From assembly GCA_964344135.1 (NCBI GenBank), contig CAYFMF010000002.1, forward strand, positions 20,015-84,014: a DNA stretch of 64,000 bases, read 5' to 3'. The position numbers and the translations under genes are program-made. This DNA is from an uncultured Piscirickettsiaceae bacterium. GTDB taxonomy: Bacteria > Pseudomonadota > Gammaproteobacteria > GCF-002020875. The notes below the pieces were generated by a model. The model was not told where the DNA came from. It saw nothing but the letters and a program-made list of their open reading frames with translations, and did not search any database. Positions 17,207 to 21,013 of this stretch are shown here, one piece after another (position 1 is the stretch's first letter; the number at the start of each line of letters is the position of its first letter).

Positions 17207-17289
17207 AAGGGGGGGCAATAATGGAGACAAAAAGTGTCTCATAGTGTATCATCAGTCCATCGATCAGGTGATTCTGTACGGGTGTAGAG

Positions 17290-17880
17290 ATGCTTCATAA
17301 TATCAAGGAGGTTTGTGAGCTGACGGGGAAGAGCCGTTCCAGCATCTATCGTATGTTCAGTCGCGGTGACCTGACCTATGTTGTGGGGAAGGATGGGAAA
17401 CGGCGCGTAGAGACCTCGGAGCTGTTGCGTGTTTTTGATGATGTCAACTTCAATGACTCCCCGACCCTTGCAGAGCCGGCGGATATCCCATCCAGCCCGG
17501 CATCCGGTGGGGATCCCTATGTCACTGCGAGAGAGCTGACAGACCTCAGGGGGCTGATTCATGACCTCAGATCGGAGCTGGATGATCTTCGGGAGGACAA
17601 CCGCCGACTGCTTCGCCTGCTGGAGTACCAGACTGTTCAGGGGTCGTCTCAGCCGCGGCAGGCAGCGCCCCAGCCAGAGGCCGTTGAGCCGCCGGACGAG
17701 GAGGCGGTACCGGTCACCGAGGTGGCAGACCAGGGCTGGAGGGCCTACCGTCAGCAACGGGCTGAACAGAACCGTAGCAGTCACTCGATGCCCGCGGCCA
17801 CAGCAGCCTCAGGGGTATTTGGTGAGTTAAGAGTCTGGCTGAGGAACTTCTTCTTTGGGGAGTGGCAGAAGAGGCCCTAG
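17290..17880 (+). CDS. AlpA/excisionase-like HTH DNA-binding protein with a C-terminal coiled coil / low-complexity region
   Basis: N-terminus IKEVCELTGKSRSSIYRMFSRGDL matches the AlpA/MerR-type HTH. The competing antisense ORF 17239..17784 is R/L-rich and judged spurious. Confidence 0.5.
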   Translation: MLHNIKEVCELTGKSRSSIYRMFSRGDLTYVVGKDGKRRVETSELLRVFDDVNFNDSPTLAEPADIPSSPASGGDPYVTARELTDLRGLIHDLRSELDDLREDNRRLLRLLEYQTVQGSSQPRQAAPQPEAVEPPDEEAVPVTEVADQGWRAYRQQRAEQNRSSHSMPAATAASGVFGELRVWLRNFFFGEWQKRP

Positions 17881-17922: not shown

Positions 17923-18255
17923 TCAGATCTTGATACAGCACTCAATGCCGTACCTCTCCTCGATATAGTGCCCAAGTATTTTCTGTTGTTCTCTGGTGAG
18001 TTGAACACAGAGCAGGATCAGCTGTGCAAGACCGTCATCCTCTGCATAGAAGAAGGCAACAGGCACCTTCAGCACCCCGGCCAGCCTCGCAATGGTCTGA
18101 TCACCTGGGCGGTGGCGGTTGTTTTCATACTGGTTGATGCGGGGGCTGGCTGTCGCTGGATCAATGCCAATCTCCAGCCCCAGCTGTTTCTGGGACAGAC
18201 CCAGCTGCTGTCTCGCCTGCTTGAGGCGATCGCCAAATACGGTATGGTTACACAT
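17923..18255 (-). CDS. XRE-family (Cro/CI-type) HTH transcriptional regulator
   Basis: 110 aa. LKQARQQLGLSQKQLGLEIGIDPATASPRINQYENNRHRP is a classic XRE HTH. Divergent from the repeat-protein gene. Confidence 0.6.
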   Translation of the reverse strand: MCNHTVFGDRLKQARQQLGLSQKQLGLEIGIDPATASPRINQYENNRHRPGDQTIARLAGVLKVPVAFFYAEDDGLAQLILLCVQLTREQQKILGHYIEERYGIECCIKI

Positions 18256-18528
18256 CCTTCCTCTCTGAGTGCCCCATAATCAGTTGAGGCCTCCCCTCCA
18301 TTGCATTGAGTGTAGACACTTTATGTGGCACCGCCCATAAAAACAATTAAGTAATACTTAATGCTCTCTATTGTCTTGCTCGATGCCACCCCCCTGGTAT
18401 GCCGGTCGTGCGATCTCATCAGTTCGGTCAGGAGGTGAGGCGTTACGGTTAGGATGGTCTGGTGTTGAATGGGGGTTTGGACTAGACTCATTACTCACGA
18501 TTTGGGAAAAAGAGTTGGGGGATTGATT

Positions 18529-20079
18529 GTGAAGAGCATTGGTTACTATCTACTGATGGTGCTCTTTTCCGCCTGGGCAGTTGCAGACCCTGTTGCTGAT
18601 CTGGAGGGAAAGAGTGGATATGAGAGGAGGGCATCCATTACCCGCCTTGCTGATACAGCCTGGGGTGGACAGCAGTTCTCCATTGAACGAGGGGTCGAGA
18701 TTCTTCGTGGGCTGACAGGGACGGATCGTTACTATGCGGCCAAATCCCTGCTGGGTTCCAATAGAGAGAGAAGAATCCTGTTGCCAGGGCCACTCTCCGT
18801 GGGAGAGGTCGATACTCTGCTGGAGGGTACGGGCAGGCAGCGACAGGACCTGATTCTACATCTGGCAGATTCCGGGGCCCCTGCCGGAAACCTTGGTGTC
18901 GAGGAGGTGCGCACACTGATTGGGGAGCTGCAGGGGGGAGCGTATGATCGTACCCTCCGATCCCTGCTGGGATCCAACCGGGCCGGGAAAAACTACGCAC
19001 TTGTCCCGTTTGGATCCGCTCAGGTCGACAGGCTTCTTGCTGCCGGGTCAGACCGTGCGGAGATGATCCGTTACATGGCGGATCGGGCGCTTCTGGAGGG
19101 AGGGTTCACTGTCGATGAGGCAGAGCGCATGATGCAGAGCCAGAGCGGGATGGATCGTCATGACTCCGTCAAGGCACTGCTCGGTTCCAATAGCGAGGAG
19201 AGGGACTACCTAACCCTTCCACTTGGATTTGCCGATGCAAAACAGCTGCTGAACGGAGTGGCCTTGCGATCTGAGCTTATCCACTACTTCTCCGACCATG
19301 GGGTGTTTGCCGGCAGATTGAGAGCCAGGGAGGTGGTTCAGCTACTGGATGGGGTTGAGAAGAGAGACCGCTATAGCGTGGTGAGGTCCCTGTTGGGGTT
19401 CAATGAGCAGGAGAGGAGCTATCTCCAGACCCCACTGGCAATGGACGATGCGGGAGCCCTGCTGGAGGGGATGGCCTATCGTGACGAGATGATTGGGCTT
19501 CTGGCCGATCAGGGTGGTCTGGTTGAGGGGTTGAGTGTGGCAGATGCCACTCTCCTGTTGGGTGAGCTTGCACGTGCGGATCGACATGATGCACTCCTCC
19601 CCCTGTTGGGCAACAATGAGCAGGGGGTGAGCTATCTCGAATTGCCTGTTACTGCCGAGGGGGCGGTGCAGTTGATGGAGCGGGCTGCCTACAGAGATGA
19701 GTTGATCGACTTTATGGTAGACCGTGGCCAGCTGGCCGGCCCACTGAGTGCTGATCAGGCGCTTGAGTTGATGACGGGTCTTGTTGGAGAGGTTCGCTAC
19801 AAAACGCTACTCTCTCTGCTGGGTAGTAATGAGCAGGAGGTAAATTATCTTCCCGTGCCAATGGAGCTGCCCGCACTATTGCCACTGCTGGAGCGGATCG
19901 CAAACCGCAAGGCGGCCATCGGATGGGTGGCTGATCACGGTATGATCAAGGGGGAGCTTGGTGAGGAGGAGACAGAGCAGTTGCTGGGGCGCCTCTATGG
20001 TGAGGAGCGTGAGCAAGCGACAGCAATCCTGAAGGGAAAGAATCGGCAGAACAGAAGCTATCTTTCAGAAGCCAGATAA
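18529..20079 (+). CDS. Secreted tandem-repeat protein: Sec signal peptide (MKSIGYYLLMVLFSAWAVA|DP from a GTG start), then six and a half exact 71-aa repeats (consensus LLGsNeqe.sYL.lPl......LLeg.ayRdEmI.y.aD.G.laG.ls.dea..Ll..l.g.dRyd.l.s)
   Basis: Repeat boundaries located by the recurring LLG(S/F/N)N motif. Every unit is 71 or 72 aa. The track ORF begins 60 nt upstream at 18469, but GTG at 18529 has a GGGGGA RBS and yields a canonical signal peptide. Confidence 0.6.
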   Translation: MKSIGYYLLMVLFSAWAVADPVADLEGKSGYERRASITRLADTAWGGQQFSIERGVEILRGLTGTDRYYAAKSLLGSNRERRILLPGPLSVGEVDTLLEGTGRQRQDLILHLADSGAPAGNLGVEEVRTLIGELQGGAYDRTLRSLLGSNRAGKNYALVPFGSAQVDRLLAAGSDRAEMIRYMADRALLEGGFTVDEAERMMQSQSGMDRHDSVKALLGSNSEERDYLTLPLGFADAKQLLNGVALRSELIHYFSDHGVFAGRLRAREVVQLLDGVEKRDRYSVVRSLLGFNEQERSYLQTPLAMDDAGALLEGMAYRDEMIGLLADQGGLVEGLSVADATLLLGELARADRHDALLPLLGNNEQGVSYLELPVTAEGAVQLMERAAYRDELIDFMVDRGQLAGPLSADQALELMTGLVGEVRYKTLLSLLGSNEQEVNYLPVPMELPALLPLLERIANRKAAIGWVADHGMIKGELGEEETEQLLGRLYGEEREQATAILKGKNRQNRSYLSEAR

Positions 20080-20222
20080 TGCCTTGAAGTTGGGGAGCCC
20101 TGCTGGCGTCGATCGGCGCAACCGAGACAGCCGCAGGCTGTCCGCAGGGTGAATGTGCAGCATTCACCAACCAGCGTGGGCGGGGCTGATCGAAGATGGA
20201 TAATGGGGTGGCAGTATAAAGT

Positions 20223-20534
20223 TGGTGGGCCCACCTGGACTCGAACCAGGGACCAAGGGATTCACTGAATCCAAATGTTTCCATTTGGAGCGGACTATCT
20301 CACCATCCACAGCATGACCTGTTTGGATGCGGGACGCTGTAACCTGTTATTAAGAACACTTTAGTTCTCAGGTAGTCTCTGCACCTTCCAGAGGTGTACC
20401 TCTGGCTTGGCTCAGGGTTGCCATCAGCTGTACTGTTAAGGTTTCCCTGAATTCATCCCGTTCATCCTGGGCCTTTCGGTCCAGGCGCACCATTTTGATG
20501 AGTCCCCTGCTCTAACCAACTGAGCTATAGGCCC
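20223..20534 (-). tRNA. ileX: tRNA-Ile2 (anticodon CAU, lysidine type) interrupted by a group I intron. 5' exon 20534..20498 (37 nt), intron 20497..20263 (235 nt), 3' exon 20262..20223 (40 nt, CCA encoded)
   Basis: The spliced sequence GGGCCTATAGCTCAGTTGGTTAGAGCAGGGGACTCATAATCCCTTGGTCCCTGGTTCGAGTCCAGGTGGGCCCACCA folds as a cloverleaf (7-bp acceptor, GCTC/GAGC D stem, GGGGA/TCCCT anticodon stem, CCTGG/CCAGG T stem). It is near-identical to E. coli ileX. The intron follows the U of CAU and ends in G. Confidence 0.85.
20263..20497 (-). mobile_element. Group I self-splicing intron (IC3-like, Azoarcus tRNA-Ile type), ORF-less, inserted after anticodon position 36
   Basis: GUG internal guide sequence 5 nt into the intron, able to pair with exon CAU. 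Conserved core elements R-like GGTGCAGAGACTAC and S-like GAGATAGTCCGC. GATGGCAACCCTGAGCCAAGC matches the Azoarcus intron segment UAUGGCAACGCCGAGCCAAGC. Terminal G. Confidence 0.8.
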
Positions 20535-20602: not shown

Positions 20603-21013
20603 ATGATCAATCACATAATCTCAAATAATGAGTTTGGAGATGTGCAGGTGGAGTGTTTGAATTGTGGGGCAGTGTTAAGTGGACGAAAGCGCAAGTTTTG
20701 CTCTCTTCGTTGCAAGAATGCATATAACAACAAGAAATATCAGGGTTACCTTACACAGCAGAGAAGAGGTGTTAGCAGGAAGAGAGAGCTGGTCCGGCTT
20801 GCAGGCGGGAAATGTATTCGGTGTGGTTATGACAGAAACTATTCTGCCCTGGAATTTCACCATATTGATCCGGAGACCAAACAGTTTCAGCTGGACCTCC
20901 GCTCTCTATCAAACAGGAAGTGGGAAAGGGTTCTCGAGGAGTCGAGAAAGTGCATTCTTCTCTGTTTGAATTGTCATGCAGAGGAGCATTACCCTCAGGC
21001 GATGCTGCGCTAG
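20603..21013 (+). CDS. Free-standing HNH endonuclease (N-terminal Cys4 zinc ribbon plus HNH / His-Me finger), putative homing endonuclease
   Basis: CIRCGY...LEFHHIDP...N...KCILLCLNCHAEEH. The segment is visibly AT-richer than its flanks. It lies 68 bp from the tRNA 5' end and 20 bp from the rpoD stop. Confidence 0.75.
   Translation: MINHIISNNEFGDVQVECLNCGAVLSGRKRKFCSLRCKNAYNNKKYQGYLTQQRRGVSRKRELVRLAGGKCIRCGYDRNYSALEFHHIDPETKQFQLDLRSLSNRKWERVLEESRKCILLCLNCHAEEHYPQAMLR

What the first reader, a model, noticed from the sequence alone, without database searches (positions are those of the whole stretch)
18529..20079. Secreted protein built from six and a half exact 71-aa tandem repeats, divergently paired with an XRE regulator next to the tRNA gene
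What the sequence shows:
- After a canonical Sec signal peptide, the mature protein is made entirely of 71-aa units. Boundaries are marked by LLG(S/F/N)N.....YL..P; the internal consensus is ...LL.G.a.RdEmI.y.aD.G.laG.l....a..Ll..l.g.dRyd.l.s. A half unit precedes the first full repeat.
- The units are only about 30-40% identical to each other, so this is an old, structured solenoid-type array, not a recent duplication.
- Its promoter region (18256-18528, AT-rich) is shared divergently with an XRE-family HTH regulator (17923-18255).
- An AlpA-like HTH gene (17290-17880) converges on that regulator.
- The whole three-gene patch abuts the 3' side of the tRNA-Ile2 gene, the classical integration side for genomic islands. 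No integrase or direct repeat of the tRNA end is visible, so if it is an island it is a remnant.

The 71-residue period does not match the common repeat classes I know (TPR 34, PPR 35, Sel1 36, ankyrin 33, HEAT about 40-47). I therefore cannot assign a family.
Basis: partly seen in the sequence, partly recalled or inferred. Interest (0 to 1): 0.6.

Follow-up and report, generated by a model that had tools for sequence, protein, structure and literature searches.

The report
Periplasmic helical repeat protein, new family
This is a real, conserved gene for an exported all-helical repeat protein whose 71-residue unit is a pair of ~35-residue helical hairpins; it belongs to an undescribed repeat family that also forms the outer part of some bacterial membrane TIR proteins, and its function is still unknown.

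Summary
Window 18529-20079 (+) encodes a 516-aa protein with a Sec-type signal peptide followed only by 71-aa units (first unit 72 aa), which are 27-42% identical to each other.

- **Gene status:** the gene is intact in about 17 orthologues from uncultured marine Gammaproteobacteria. It is under purifying selection (dN/dS 0.23).
- **Structure:** AlphaFold gives a confident alpha-solenoid (pLDDT 92) with four helices per unit. Each unit is two related hairpins of 33 and 38 aa, which explains the odd period.
- **Known families:** no Pfam, NCBIfam, PADLOC or PDB sequence match, and no significant Foldseek-PDB match.
- **Distant relatives:** a profile of the unit finds 85 clusters. About half are TIR-transmembrane-repeat proteins; others carry OmpA-like or HtrA-like domains. 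The repeats are always outside the cytoplasm.
- **Best reading:** a non-enzymatic periplasmic binding scaffold of a new repeat family.
- **XRE gene:** the divergent XRE gene and a perfect 17-bp palindrome are conserved, but only in the closest clade.
- **Island idea:** not supported. Composition is normal and synteny is conserved. The tRNA-Ile(CAU) gene, which carries a group I intron, sits beside rpoD as ileX does in E. coli.

The parts
18529..20079 (+). REP coding sequence: 516 aa plus stop, GTG start. The mature protein is 496 aa, 54 kDa, pI 4.9, with no cysteine.
18529..18588 (+). Signal peptide (aa 1-20), MKSIGYYLLMVLFSAWAVA|DP. It is Sec / signal peptidase I type with no lipobox.
   Evidence: Sequence inspection. 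An equivalent hydrophobic N-terminus is present in all orthologues. AF2 pLDDT is below 50 for residues 1-3 and 9-18.
18589..18747 (+). N-terminal unit (aa 21-73): a four-helix unit with a degenerate first helix.
18748..18963 (+). Repeat unit 1 (aa 74-145, 72 aa)
18964..19176 (+). Repeat unit 2 (aa 146-216, 71 aa). It contains the family-invariant M-x-RHD segment.
19177..19389 (+). Repeat unit 3 (aa 217-287, 71 aa)
19390..19602 (+). Repeat unit 4 (aa 288-358, 71 aa). It contains the conserved RADR(H/Y)DA segment.
19603..19815 (+). Repeat unit 5 (aa 359-429, 71 aa)
19816..20028 (+). Repeat unit 6 (aa 430-500, 71 aa). It ends in the conserved LLGRLYGEEREQA cap.
20029..20076 (+). C-terminal tail (aa 501-516): the linker part of a further unit. 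It is present only in the closest orthologues.
17923..18255 (-). XRE-family HTH regulator (110 aa), transcribed divergently from REP
   Evidence: Pfam HTH_3, E 3e-12. Conserved next to REP in L001, L002, L011, L012 and L019.
18346..18362 (.). Perfect 17-bp palindrome ATTAAGTA-A-TACTTAAT in the XRE-REP intergenic region. It is a candidate operator.
   Evidence: Unique in the window. It is the most conserved intergenic block across four genomes. That XRE binds it is inferred, not shown.
18477..18489 (+). Conserved block TTGGACTAGACTC, about 40 nt upstream of the REP start. It may be a promoter element.
   Evidence: Its function was not tested.
17290..17880 (+). HTH_17 (excisionase/MerR-type) DNA-binding protein, convergent with the XRE gene. 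It is not an AlpA family member by Pfam threshold.
   Evidence: Syntenic in relatives.
20223..20534 (-). tRNA-Ile(CAU) gene, convergent with REP. It is interrupted by a 235-nt group I intron (20263-20497) in the anticodon loop.
   Evidence: Rfam RF00028, 76.5 bits. The in-silico spliced product is a 77-nt tRNA with anticodon CAU and is identical to E. coli ileX at 66 of 77 positions.
20087..20112 (+). Degenerate direct repeat (20 of 26 matches) of the tRNA 3' end at 20219-20244. It starts 8 nt after the REP stop and bounds a 132-nt element.
   Evidence: D3. The element is tandemly triplicated in L001 and absent in L005 and L009.

Best explanation
REP is a Sec-exported, soluble periplasmic protein with no catalytic domain. 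It folds into one continuous alpha-solenoid of seven four-helix units, that is 14 helical hairpins.

**Structure of the unit.** Each 71-aa unit is a pair of related hairpins, each a short helix followed by a long helix: an A half of about 33 aa and a B half of about 38 aa. Units are joined by a long conserved loop, LLGxN-x5-YLxxP. In the model these loops form beta-bridges along one edge of the solenoid.

**Proposed function.** The most likely function is as a binding scaffold or adaptor for a specific partner in the cell envelope. The partner is more likely a defined protein or other asymmetric ligand than a homopolymer, because every unit has kept its own sequence identity across orthologues.

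**Family.** The four-helix unit defines an undescribed extracytoplasmic repeat family. The same module forms the periplasmic part of TIR-TM-repeat proteins, OmpA-like peptidoglycan-associated proteins and HtrA-like proteases. There it sits where a sensor or substrate-binding domain would be.

**Regulation.** In the window's clade, expression is probably controlled by the divergent XRE repressor acting at the 17-bp palindrome.

**Shown:** the gene is real and under constraint; the repeat anatomy; the predicted fold; the absence of known-family matches; the domain partners of the distant relatives.

**Inferred:** periplasmic location, binding function, and control by XRE.
For: - **Repeat anatomy:**
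- **Half-unit homology:** hhalign P 1.2e-5.
- **Predicted fold:** AF2 full-length model pLDDT 92, pTM 0.80; two-unit model pLDDT 95.9; four helices per unit.
- **Real gene under constraint:** 17 clusters of the same length with no internal indels, and dN/dS 0.23 against the 80%-identical orthologue.
- **Positional orthology of units:** nearest neighbour has the same index for 94 of 96 units; same-index units are 50% identical, different-index units 30%.
- **No catalytic or known domain:**
- **Distant relatives found with the unit profile:** 85 clusters at E <= 1e-3 and 32 at E <= 1e-10.
  - 39 of the 80 non-orthologue relatives scanned have an N-terminal TIR_2 domain; 37 of the 77 classified show the full order TIR, one TM helix at about residues 150-180, then the repeats.
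  - 3 have OmpA_C plus a signal peptide, and 2 have a trypsin/HtrA-like domain plus a signal peptide.
  - The repeats are therefore consistently placed outside the cytoplasm.
- **Profile-profile check:** REP unit against TIR-associated unit gives probability 97.8%, E 6.7e-13 over 61 columns.
- **XRE link:** divergent pairing and a conserved palindrome.
Against: - There is no direct evidence for any ligand or partner.
- No gene neighbour is conserved across the whole family, so context gives no functional clue.
- The signal peptide was judged by inspection only.
- Model coordinates could not be inspected, so no groove or conserved surface was mapped.
- The alignment behind the AF2 models has only 16 sequences.
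- The TIR-associated units used were picked by the same profile, so that comparison is partly circular. The library-wide E-values (about 1e-19 to 1e-21) do not have this problem.
- The XRE pairing is absent in the more distant orthologues.
Confidence: 0.55

Rival explanations
1. Remnant genomic island. On this view the HTH_17-XRE-REP patch is cargo of a mobile element that integrated at the 3' end of tRNA-Ile2 and later lost its integrase.
For: - The two small regulators are of types common on mobile elements. The XRE protein weakly resembles RstR and DicA repressors. The HTH_17 N-terminus is about 35% identical to small-plasmid 'excisionase family / entry exclusion protein 1' genes.
- A degenerate direct repeat of the tRNA 3' end exists at 20087-20112. 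This shows some past recombination at this tRNA.
Against: - G+C is 0.55-0.59 across the patch, the same as the flanks.
- pilQ-tsaC-HTH_17-XRE-REP is syntenic in genomes whose REP is 59-80% identical.
- REP lies directly beside the same intron-bearing tRNA and rpoD in a lineage with only 47% REP identity.
- tRNA-Ile(CAU) downstream of rpoD is also the E. coli arrangement.
- The direct repeat bounds only 132 nt and REP lies outside it.
- No further copy of the tRNA end occurs in the window at up to 3 mismatches.
- No integrase is among the neighbouring ORFs.
Confidence: 0.07
2. Secreted host- or partner-interaction factor. REP would be released beyond the outer membrane, for example by a type II system, and would bind a eukaryotic or other foreign target, as many secreted Sel1, TPR or ankyrin repeat proteins of symbionts and pathogens do.
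For: - It has a Sec signal peptide and is made only of repeats.
- Its taxonomic range is narrow: uncultured marine Gammaproteobacteria only.
- It is acidic and cysteine-free.
Against: - There is no linked secretion system, and no link to pilQ outside one clade.
- Relatives of the repeat are anchored in the inner membrane (TIR-TM) or to peptidoglycan (OmpA-like). That places the module in the periplasm.
- The lifestyle of the host organisms is unknown.
Confidence: 0.12
3. Envelope-surveillance or defence accessory. REP would be a soluble paralogue of the ectodomain of TIR-TM-repeat receptors. It would act as a co-receptor, decoy or buffer for the same periplasmic signal, such as a phage or envelope-damage cue.
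For: - About half of the distant relatives are TIR-TM-repeat proteins.
- In Acetobacter orientalis the TIR-TM-repeat gene sits beside a DUF4231 protein and a Wadjet JetA/B/C system.
- The protease-repeat gene of L024 lies near a TIR_2 gene.
Against: - REP itself lies in a housekeeping neighbourhood (tsaC, rpoD, dnaG).
- It gives no PADLOC hit.
- No TIR gene was seen in the REP loci examined.
- The closest outgroup to REP is the OmpA-fused form, not the TIR form.
- The defence context rests on one or two examples.
Confidence: 0.15
4. Not a functional gene: a chance ORF or a decaying repeat array.
For: None beyond the absence of any annotation.
Against: - Intact, co-linear orthologues are found down to 39% identity.
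- dN/dS is 0.23.
- The AF2 model is confident.
- A conserved ribosome-binding site and start codon are present.
Confidence: 0.01

Closest known systems
TPR, Sel1-like and PPR helical-hairpin solenoids (34-36 aa repeats)
   Same: - The elementary module is an antiparallel two-helix hairpin of about 33-38 aa, stacked into a solenoid.
- These families are the nearest shapes in Foldseek. The best query-normalised TM-score, 0.49, is to the PPR domain of PRORP1; Sel1 and designed TPR proteins are also listed.
- Periplasmic TPR and Sel1 proteins typically act as non-enzymatic scaffolds. This last point is from general knowledge and was not tested here.
   Different: - No Pfam model of these families matches, even at E <= 1 for the full protein or E <= 10 for single units.
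- No Foldseek hit reaches E <= 1e-3.
- The evolutionary unit is a fixed A/B hairpin pair of 71 aa with a long conserved LLGxN-x5-YLxxP loop. The signature residues (R in helix 2 of A, DR in helix 2 of B) are not those of TPR, Sel1 or PPR.
Bacterial TIR-TM-repeat proteins annotated only as 'TIR domain-containing protein' (for example Acetobacter orientalis WP_278368729.1)
   Same: They share the four-helix double-hairpin unit. Whole-library E-values are about 1e-16 to 1e-19, and hhalign gives 97.8% probability over 61 columns. The repeats lie outside the cytoplasm.
   Different: - They have an N-terminal cytoplasmic TIR_2 domain, one TM helix and a low-complexity linker. REP has only a signal peptide.
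- Their period is about 62-66 aa with a short linker and usually 2-5 units. REP has a 71-aa period and 7 units.
- One example lies in a defence-type neighbourhood. REP does not.
Uncharacterised OmpA-like peptidoglycan-associated proteins with N-terminal repeats (P0018, P0019, P0021; metagenomic)
   Same: They are the closest outgroup. Their units match the whole 71-aa profile, including the LLGxN...Y...P linker, at up to 61 bits per unit. They also have a signal peptide.
   Different: They have only 1-3 units, followed by an unassigned middle domain and a C-terminal OmpA domain. REP has no peptidoglycan-binding domain.
MgtE N-terminal domain (PF03448)
   Same: It recurs as a weak hit in three independent searches:
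- PDB profile search, 8gpv, E 0.11;
- Pfam MgtE_N, E 0.069, for one unit;
- Foldseek, 8gpv and 8gps, E 0.6-1.9.

Both proteins are helical superhelices.
   Different: None of these hits is significant. MgtE_N is cytoplasmic. TM-scores are at most 0.25.

Membership tests
TPR / Sel1 / PPR repeat families (Pfam) | Match to the family HMM (the consensus of the 34-36 aa repeat) | tested here: not met
   There is no such hit for the full protein at E <= 1, nor for 42 single units at E <= 10. NCBIfam gives no hit.
TPR / Sel1 / PPR repeat families (Pfam) | Antiparallel two-helix hairpins of about 35 aa stacked into a solenoid | tested here: met
   AF2 models show four helices per 71 aa. The A and B halves are related. 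This feature is generic and does not establish membership.
TPR / Sel1 / PPR repeat families (Pfam) | Significant structural superposition on a solved member | tested here: not met
tRNA-linked genomic island | Integrase next to the tRNA | tested here: not met
   The neighbouring ORFs are pilQ, tsaC, the HTH_17 gene, the XRE gene, REP, an HNH-like ORF, rpoD and dnaG.
tRNA-linked genomic island | Direct repeat of the tRNA 3' end at the far border of the island | tested here: not met
   The only repeat (20087-20112) lies 132 nt from the tRNA and downstream of the REP stop. There is no other copy in the window at up to 3 mismatches.
tRNA-linked genomic island | Atypical base composition | tested here: not met
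   G+C is 0.53-0.60 across 17.0-20.25 kb, like the flanks.
tRNA-linked genomic island | Variable presence among related genomes | tested here: not met
   The patch is syntenic in L001, L002, L011, L012 and L019. REP-tRNA-rpoD adjacency is kept in L005 and L009.
XRE-family HTH regulator (gene 17923-18255) | HTH_3 domain above the Pfam threshold | tested here: met
   46.8 bits against a cutoff of 23, E 3e-12.
AlpA family (PF05930; gene 17290-17880) | Match above the Phage_AlpA threshold | tested here: not met
   14.2 bits against a cutoff of 21. HTH_17 does pass, at 32.8 bits against 27.
Sec (signal peptidase I) exported protein | N-terminal n, h and c regions with an AxA cleavage site and no lipobox | tested here: met
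   By inspection of MKSIGYYLLMVLFSAWAVA|DP and the equivalent N-termini of 15 orthologues. No dedicated predictor was available and export was not shown.
Undescribed extracytoplasmic double-hairpin repeat family (TIR-TM-repeat, OmpA-repeat, protease-repeat) | Significant profile match of the four-helix unit | tested here: met
   32 clusters at E <= 1e-10 in 1.84 billion proteins. hhalign E 6.7e-13. The repeat region has no existing Pfam, NCBIfam or PADLOC model.
tRNA-Ile2 (CAU) with group I intron | Cloverleaf with anticodon CAU, similarity to ileX, and an intron matching RF00028 | tested here: met
   - The spliced 77-nt product folds as a tRNA with anticodon CAU.
- It is identical to E. coli ileX at 66 of 77 positions.
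- It has the same position after rpoD as ileX.
- The intron scores 76.5 bits against a cutoff of 50.

Lysidine modification cannot be tested here.

The most novel reading that the evidence does not exclude
The 71-aa unit marks a previously undescribed extracytoplasmic helical repeat that bacteria use as a sensor ectodomain. In TIR-TM-repeat proteins it would couple a periplasmic cue to a cytoplasmic TIR effector. That topology is Toll-like-receptor-like, but with a helical solenoid in place of leucine-rich repeats. REP would be the free periplasmic form of this sensor module. It would bind the same class of envelope or invader-derived ligand, acting as a co-receptor, buffer or decoy.
Probability: 0.25. 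Interest if true: 0.65.

Novelty: new variant of a known kind. Interest (0 to 1): 0.4.

Why it matters
For the window itself, the result is a well-defined but functionally unassigned periplasmic solenoid protein. It comes from a narrow uncultured lineage, so it is of modest importance.

The wider value has three parts.
- The unit profile defines a repeat family with no Pfam, NCBIfam or PADLOC model and no solved structure.
- The family is confidently modelled as a double-hairpin solenoid.
- The family gives the first handle on the unannotated outer half of a set of bacterial TIR-transmembrane proteins. One of these lies beside a Wadjet system.

If those repeats sense something in the periplasm, they would be a new input domain for TIR signalling in bacteria. 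REP would then be a convenient soluble form for structural and ligand studies.

Tried and rejected
- **Family libraries.** Pfam, NCBIfam and PADLOC scans of the full protein and of single units returned only noise: CbeA_antitoxin E 0.037, MgtE_N E 0.069, SHOCT-like E 0.013.
- **PDB sequence search.** Profile searches with the unit and with the full family gave nothing below E 0.1.
- **Foldseek against PDB.** The full model and a two-unit model returned only generic solenoids, none significant.
- **Word-indexed search with the unit alignment.** The search for homologous proteins returned nothing, a limitation of the word index for such a short query; one search was wasted.
- **Metagenome scan.** It added only four loci and no new contexts.
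- **Promoter and terminator scan.** It gave no convincing REP promoter. A sigma-54 or sigma-E reading of the conserved TTGGACTAGACTC block was considered by eye and dropped.
- **Link to type IV pili through pilQ.** Rejected, because the adjacency is limited to one clade.
- **Literature.** Searches for membrane-anchored bacterial TIR proteins with periplasmic repeats found nothing relevant.
- **DUF4476.** It is a weak hit in 2 of 80 distant relatives and was not pursued.
Full report

Yes. A long ORF occupies 18469-20079 on the plus strand. All orthologues start at the position of the GTG at 18529. That codon is preceded by GGGGGA, and the DNA between 18469 and 18529 is not conserved as coding sequence in relatives. 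The gene is therefore 18529-20079, 516 aa.

BLOSUM62 autocorrelation of the protein has positive peaks only at lags 71, 142, 213 and 284, with 28% identity at lag 71. At the DNA level, five copies of the linker segment are spaced exactly 213 nt apart (D1). LLGxN anchors lie at residues 74, 146, 217, 288, 359 and 430, so the first unit is 72 aa and the next five are 71 aa. Pairwise unit identity is 27-42%.

The N-terminus MKSIGYYLLMVLFSAWAVA|DP has the form of a signal peptidase I signal. It has no lipobox, and all orthologues share a comparable hydrophobic N-terminus. No predictor was available, so this rests on inspection.

**2. Is it a functional gene?**

- A search of 5.8 billion clusters found only 17 relatives. 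All are 500-515 aa (one is a fragment), and none has a Pfam domain.
- Sixteen of them align end to end without internal indels, down to 39% identity.
- Against the 80%-identical orthologue, dN/dS is 0.23.
- Units are positional orthologues. For 94 of 96 units, the nearest neighbour in another protein has the same index. Same-index units average 50% identity and different-index units 30%.
- The array was therefore fixed before the family diversified. It has not undergone concerted evolution or changes in copy number.
- The hosts are uncultured marine MAGs labelled Piscirickettsiaceae or Gammaproteobacteria. A metagenome scan added only four loci, so the family is rare.

**3. Structure**

AlphaFold2 on the 16-sequence alignment gives pLDDT 92 and pTM 0.80. 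A two-unit fragment gives pLDDT 95.9. Every 71-aa unit contains four helices in the order short, long, short, long, with isolated beta-bridges in the loops.

The N-terminal piece (aa 21-73) is a seventh unit with a degenerate first helix. The mature protein is thus seven double-hairpin units, or 28 helices.

A profile of the first half of the unit (33 aa) aligns with a profile of the second half (38 aa): L-s-x-x-e-a-x-x-L-L-x-g...R...L, hhalign P 1.2e-5. The weak autocorrelation ranks of lags 32 and 39 agree with this. So the 71-aa period is a fixed pair of ~35-aa hairpins.

**4. Comparison with known families**

- Pfam, NCBIfam and PADLOC give no hit for the protein or for single units.
- PDB sequence searches with the unit profile and the full-family profile give nothing below E 0.1.
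- Foldseek against PDB gives no hit at E <= 1e-3. The lists contain generic solenoids (PPR, Sel1, TPR, PUF, importin) with query-normalised TM-scores up to 0.24 for the full model and up to 0.49 for two units.
- The MgtE N-terminal domain recurs as a sub-threshold hit in three searches. I treat this as unproven.

**5. Distant relatives**

A profile of 42 units was searched against 1.84 billion cluster representatives. It found 85 clusters at E <= 1e-3 and 32 at E <= 1e-10. Besides the orthologues, the relatives are as follows.

- **OmpA-fused proteins.** They have a signal peptide, 1-3 units that match the whole profile including the LLGxN linker (up to 61 bits per unit), and a C-terminal OmpA domain. 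These are the closest outgroup.
- **TIR-TM-repeat proteins.** They have an N-terminal TIR_2 domain, one hydrophobic helix at about residues 150-180, a low-complexity linker and then 2-5 units with a period of about 62-66 aa. There are 39 of these among 80 by Pfam. By my own scan, 37 of the 77 classified show the full TIR + TM + repeat order.
- **Protease-fused proteins.** They carry a signal peptide and a trypsin/HtrA-like domain.
- **Repeat-only proteins and fragments.**

The repeat regions of these relatives have no Pfam, NCBIfam or PADLOC model. A profile-profile comparison of REP units with TIR-associated units gives 97.8% probability, E 6.7e-13, over 61 columns. That comparison is partly circular, because the units were picked by the same HMM.

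In every architecture the repeats are predicted to lie outside the cytoplasm, which agrees with REP's signal peptide.

One TIR member is from a cultured organism, Acetobacter orientalis, where it is annotated only as a TIR domain-containing protein. That gene lies beside a DUF4231 protein and a Wadjet JetA/B/C system. Near the protease-repeat gene of L024 there is a second protease-repeat gene and a TIR_2 gene.

**6. Genomic context and the island idea**

- In genomes whose REP is 59-80% identical, the order pilQ, tsaC, HTH_17 gene, XRE gene, REP is conserved.
- In a lineage with 47% identity, REP lies directly against the same intron-bearing tRNA, followed by rpoD-dnaG.
- In other orthologues the neighbours are a TRAP transporter or unrelated genes.
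- G+C across the patch equals that of the flanks.
- E. coli K-12 has rpsU-dnaG-rpoD-mug-ileX. The tRNA here, spliced in silico, is a 77-nt tRNA(CAU) identical to ileX at 66 of 77 positions.
- The tRNA is therefore part of an ancient core arrangement and not a landmark of integration.
- A degenerate 26-nt copy of the tRNA 3' end does exist (20087-20112 against 20219-20244). It bounds only a 132-nt hairpin-rich element between the REP stop and the tRNA. That element is triplicated in L001 and absent in L005 and L009. REP lies outside it.
- No integrase is nearby.

The island-remnant reading is not supported, although the two small regulators are of mobile-element types.

**7. Regulation**

The XRE gene passes HTH_3. 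The shared intergenic region contains a perfect 17-bp palindrome, ATTAAGTA-A-TACTTAAT (18346-18362). It is unique in the window and is the best-conserved intergenic block across four genomes. A second conserved block, TTGGACTAGACTC, lies about 40 nt upstream of the REP start.

It is a reasonable inference that XRE binds the palindrome and controls itself, REP or both. This was not shown, and it can apply only to this clade.

**8. Most likely mechanism**

REP is probably a soluble periplasmic, non-enzymatic solenoid that binds a defined partner in the envelope.
- The individually conserved units argue for an asymmetric partner rather than a homopolymer.
- The domain partners of the repeat elsewhere (TIR behind a membrane helix, OmpA, HtrA-like protease) place it in the position of a sensor or substrate-binding module.

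Confidence in this general statement is about 0.55. The identity of the ligand is unknown.

Rivals, with approximate confidence:
- envelope-surveillance accessory related to the TIR receptors, 0.15;
- factor secreted beyond the outer membrane, 0.12;
- island cargo, 0.07;
- non-functional ORF, 0.01.

**9. Novelty and score**

The fold class, a helical-hairpin solenoid, is known. The repeat family, its double-hairpin unit and its link to TIR-TM proteins are not described in the libraries or papers I could search. I rate it a new variant of a known kind, with interest 0.4.

Noticed in passing
window 20223-20534 (minus strand); intron 20263-20497: The tRNA-Ile(CAU) gene is interrupted in the anticodon loop, right after CAU, by a 235-nt group I intron (Rfam RF00028, 76.5 bits). 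ARAGORN finds no tRNA anywhere in the window in default mode. From memory, this is the same kind of insertion as the Azoarcus tRNA-Ile intron. The intron-bearing gene is conserved in L001 (86% nt) and in L005 and L009 (92.5% nt).
   Followed up: yes
window 20087-20222; L001 9533-9940: A 132-nt element lies between the REP stop and the tRNA, bounded by a degenerate 26-nt direct repeat of the tRNA 3' end. It contains two hairpins (GACAGCC/GGCTGTC and GGTGAATG/CATTCACC). In L001 the ~136-nt unit, each copy starting with the tRNA-end sequence, is tandemly triplicated. It is absent in L005 and L009. Its origin is unexplained: it could be an att-site remnant or a small duplicating element.
   Followed up: partly
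window 20603-21013 (plus strand): A 136-aa ORF with weak HNH endonuclease hits (E about 1e-3) and Cys-rich zinc-ribbon motifs lies in a low-G+C stretch (0.45 against about 0.57) between rpoD and the intron-bearing tRNA. L009 has no room for it (a 100-nt gap), so it looks like a lineage-specific insertion. It may be a free-standing homing-type endonuclease.
   Followed up: partly
L016 5975-10037 (Acetobacter orientalis CP171013.1); L023; L024: TIR_2-TM-repeat proteins form a coherent, unannotated architecture (37-39 of 80 distant relatives). In A. orientalis the gene follows a 658-aa DUF4231 protein and lies beside Wadjet jetABC. In L024 two adjacent trypsin-like proteins both carry the repeat and a TIR_2 gene is nearby.
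   Followed up: partly
window 17224-17240 and 18311-18326: A palindrome GAGACA-N5-TGTCTC sits just upstream of the HTH_17 gene and overlaps a promoter-like site. A related AGACAC block lies within the conserved TGTAGACACTTTATGTG of the XRE-REP intergenic region. The two arms are 92% complementary (I19). They may be shared regulator sites.
   Followed up: no
window 17290-17880: The HTH_17 protein has an N-terminal excisionase-type HTH that is about 35% identical to 'excisionase family / entry exclusion protein 1' genes of small enterobacterial plasmids. It also has a coiled-coil-like segment and a disordered tail. Even so, it is syntenic next to tsaC in related genomes. In L011 an extra ArsR-type gene sits between it and the XRE gene.
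   Followed up: partly
L005 and L009, 5' ends: Two independent assemblies of the 47%-identity orthologue both break within about 180-320 nt upstream of REP. This hints at a repeat or variable region there. What lies upstream of REP in that lineage is unknown.
   Followed up: no
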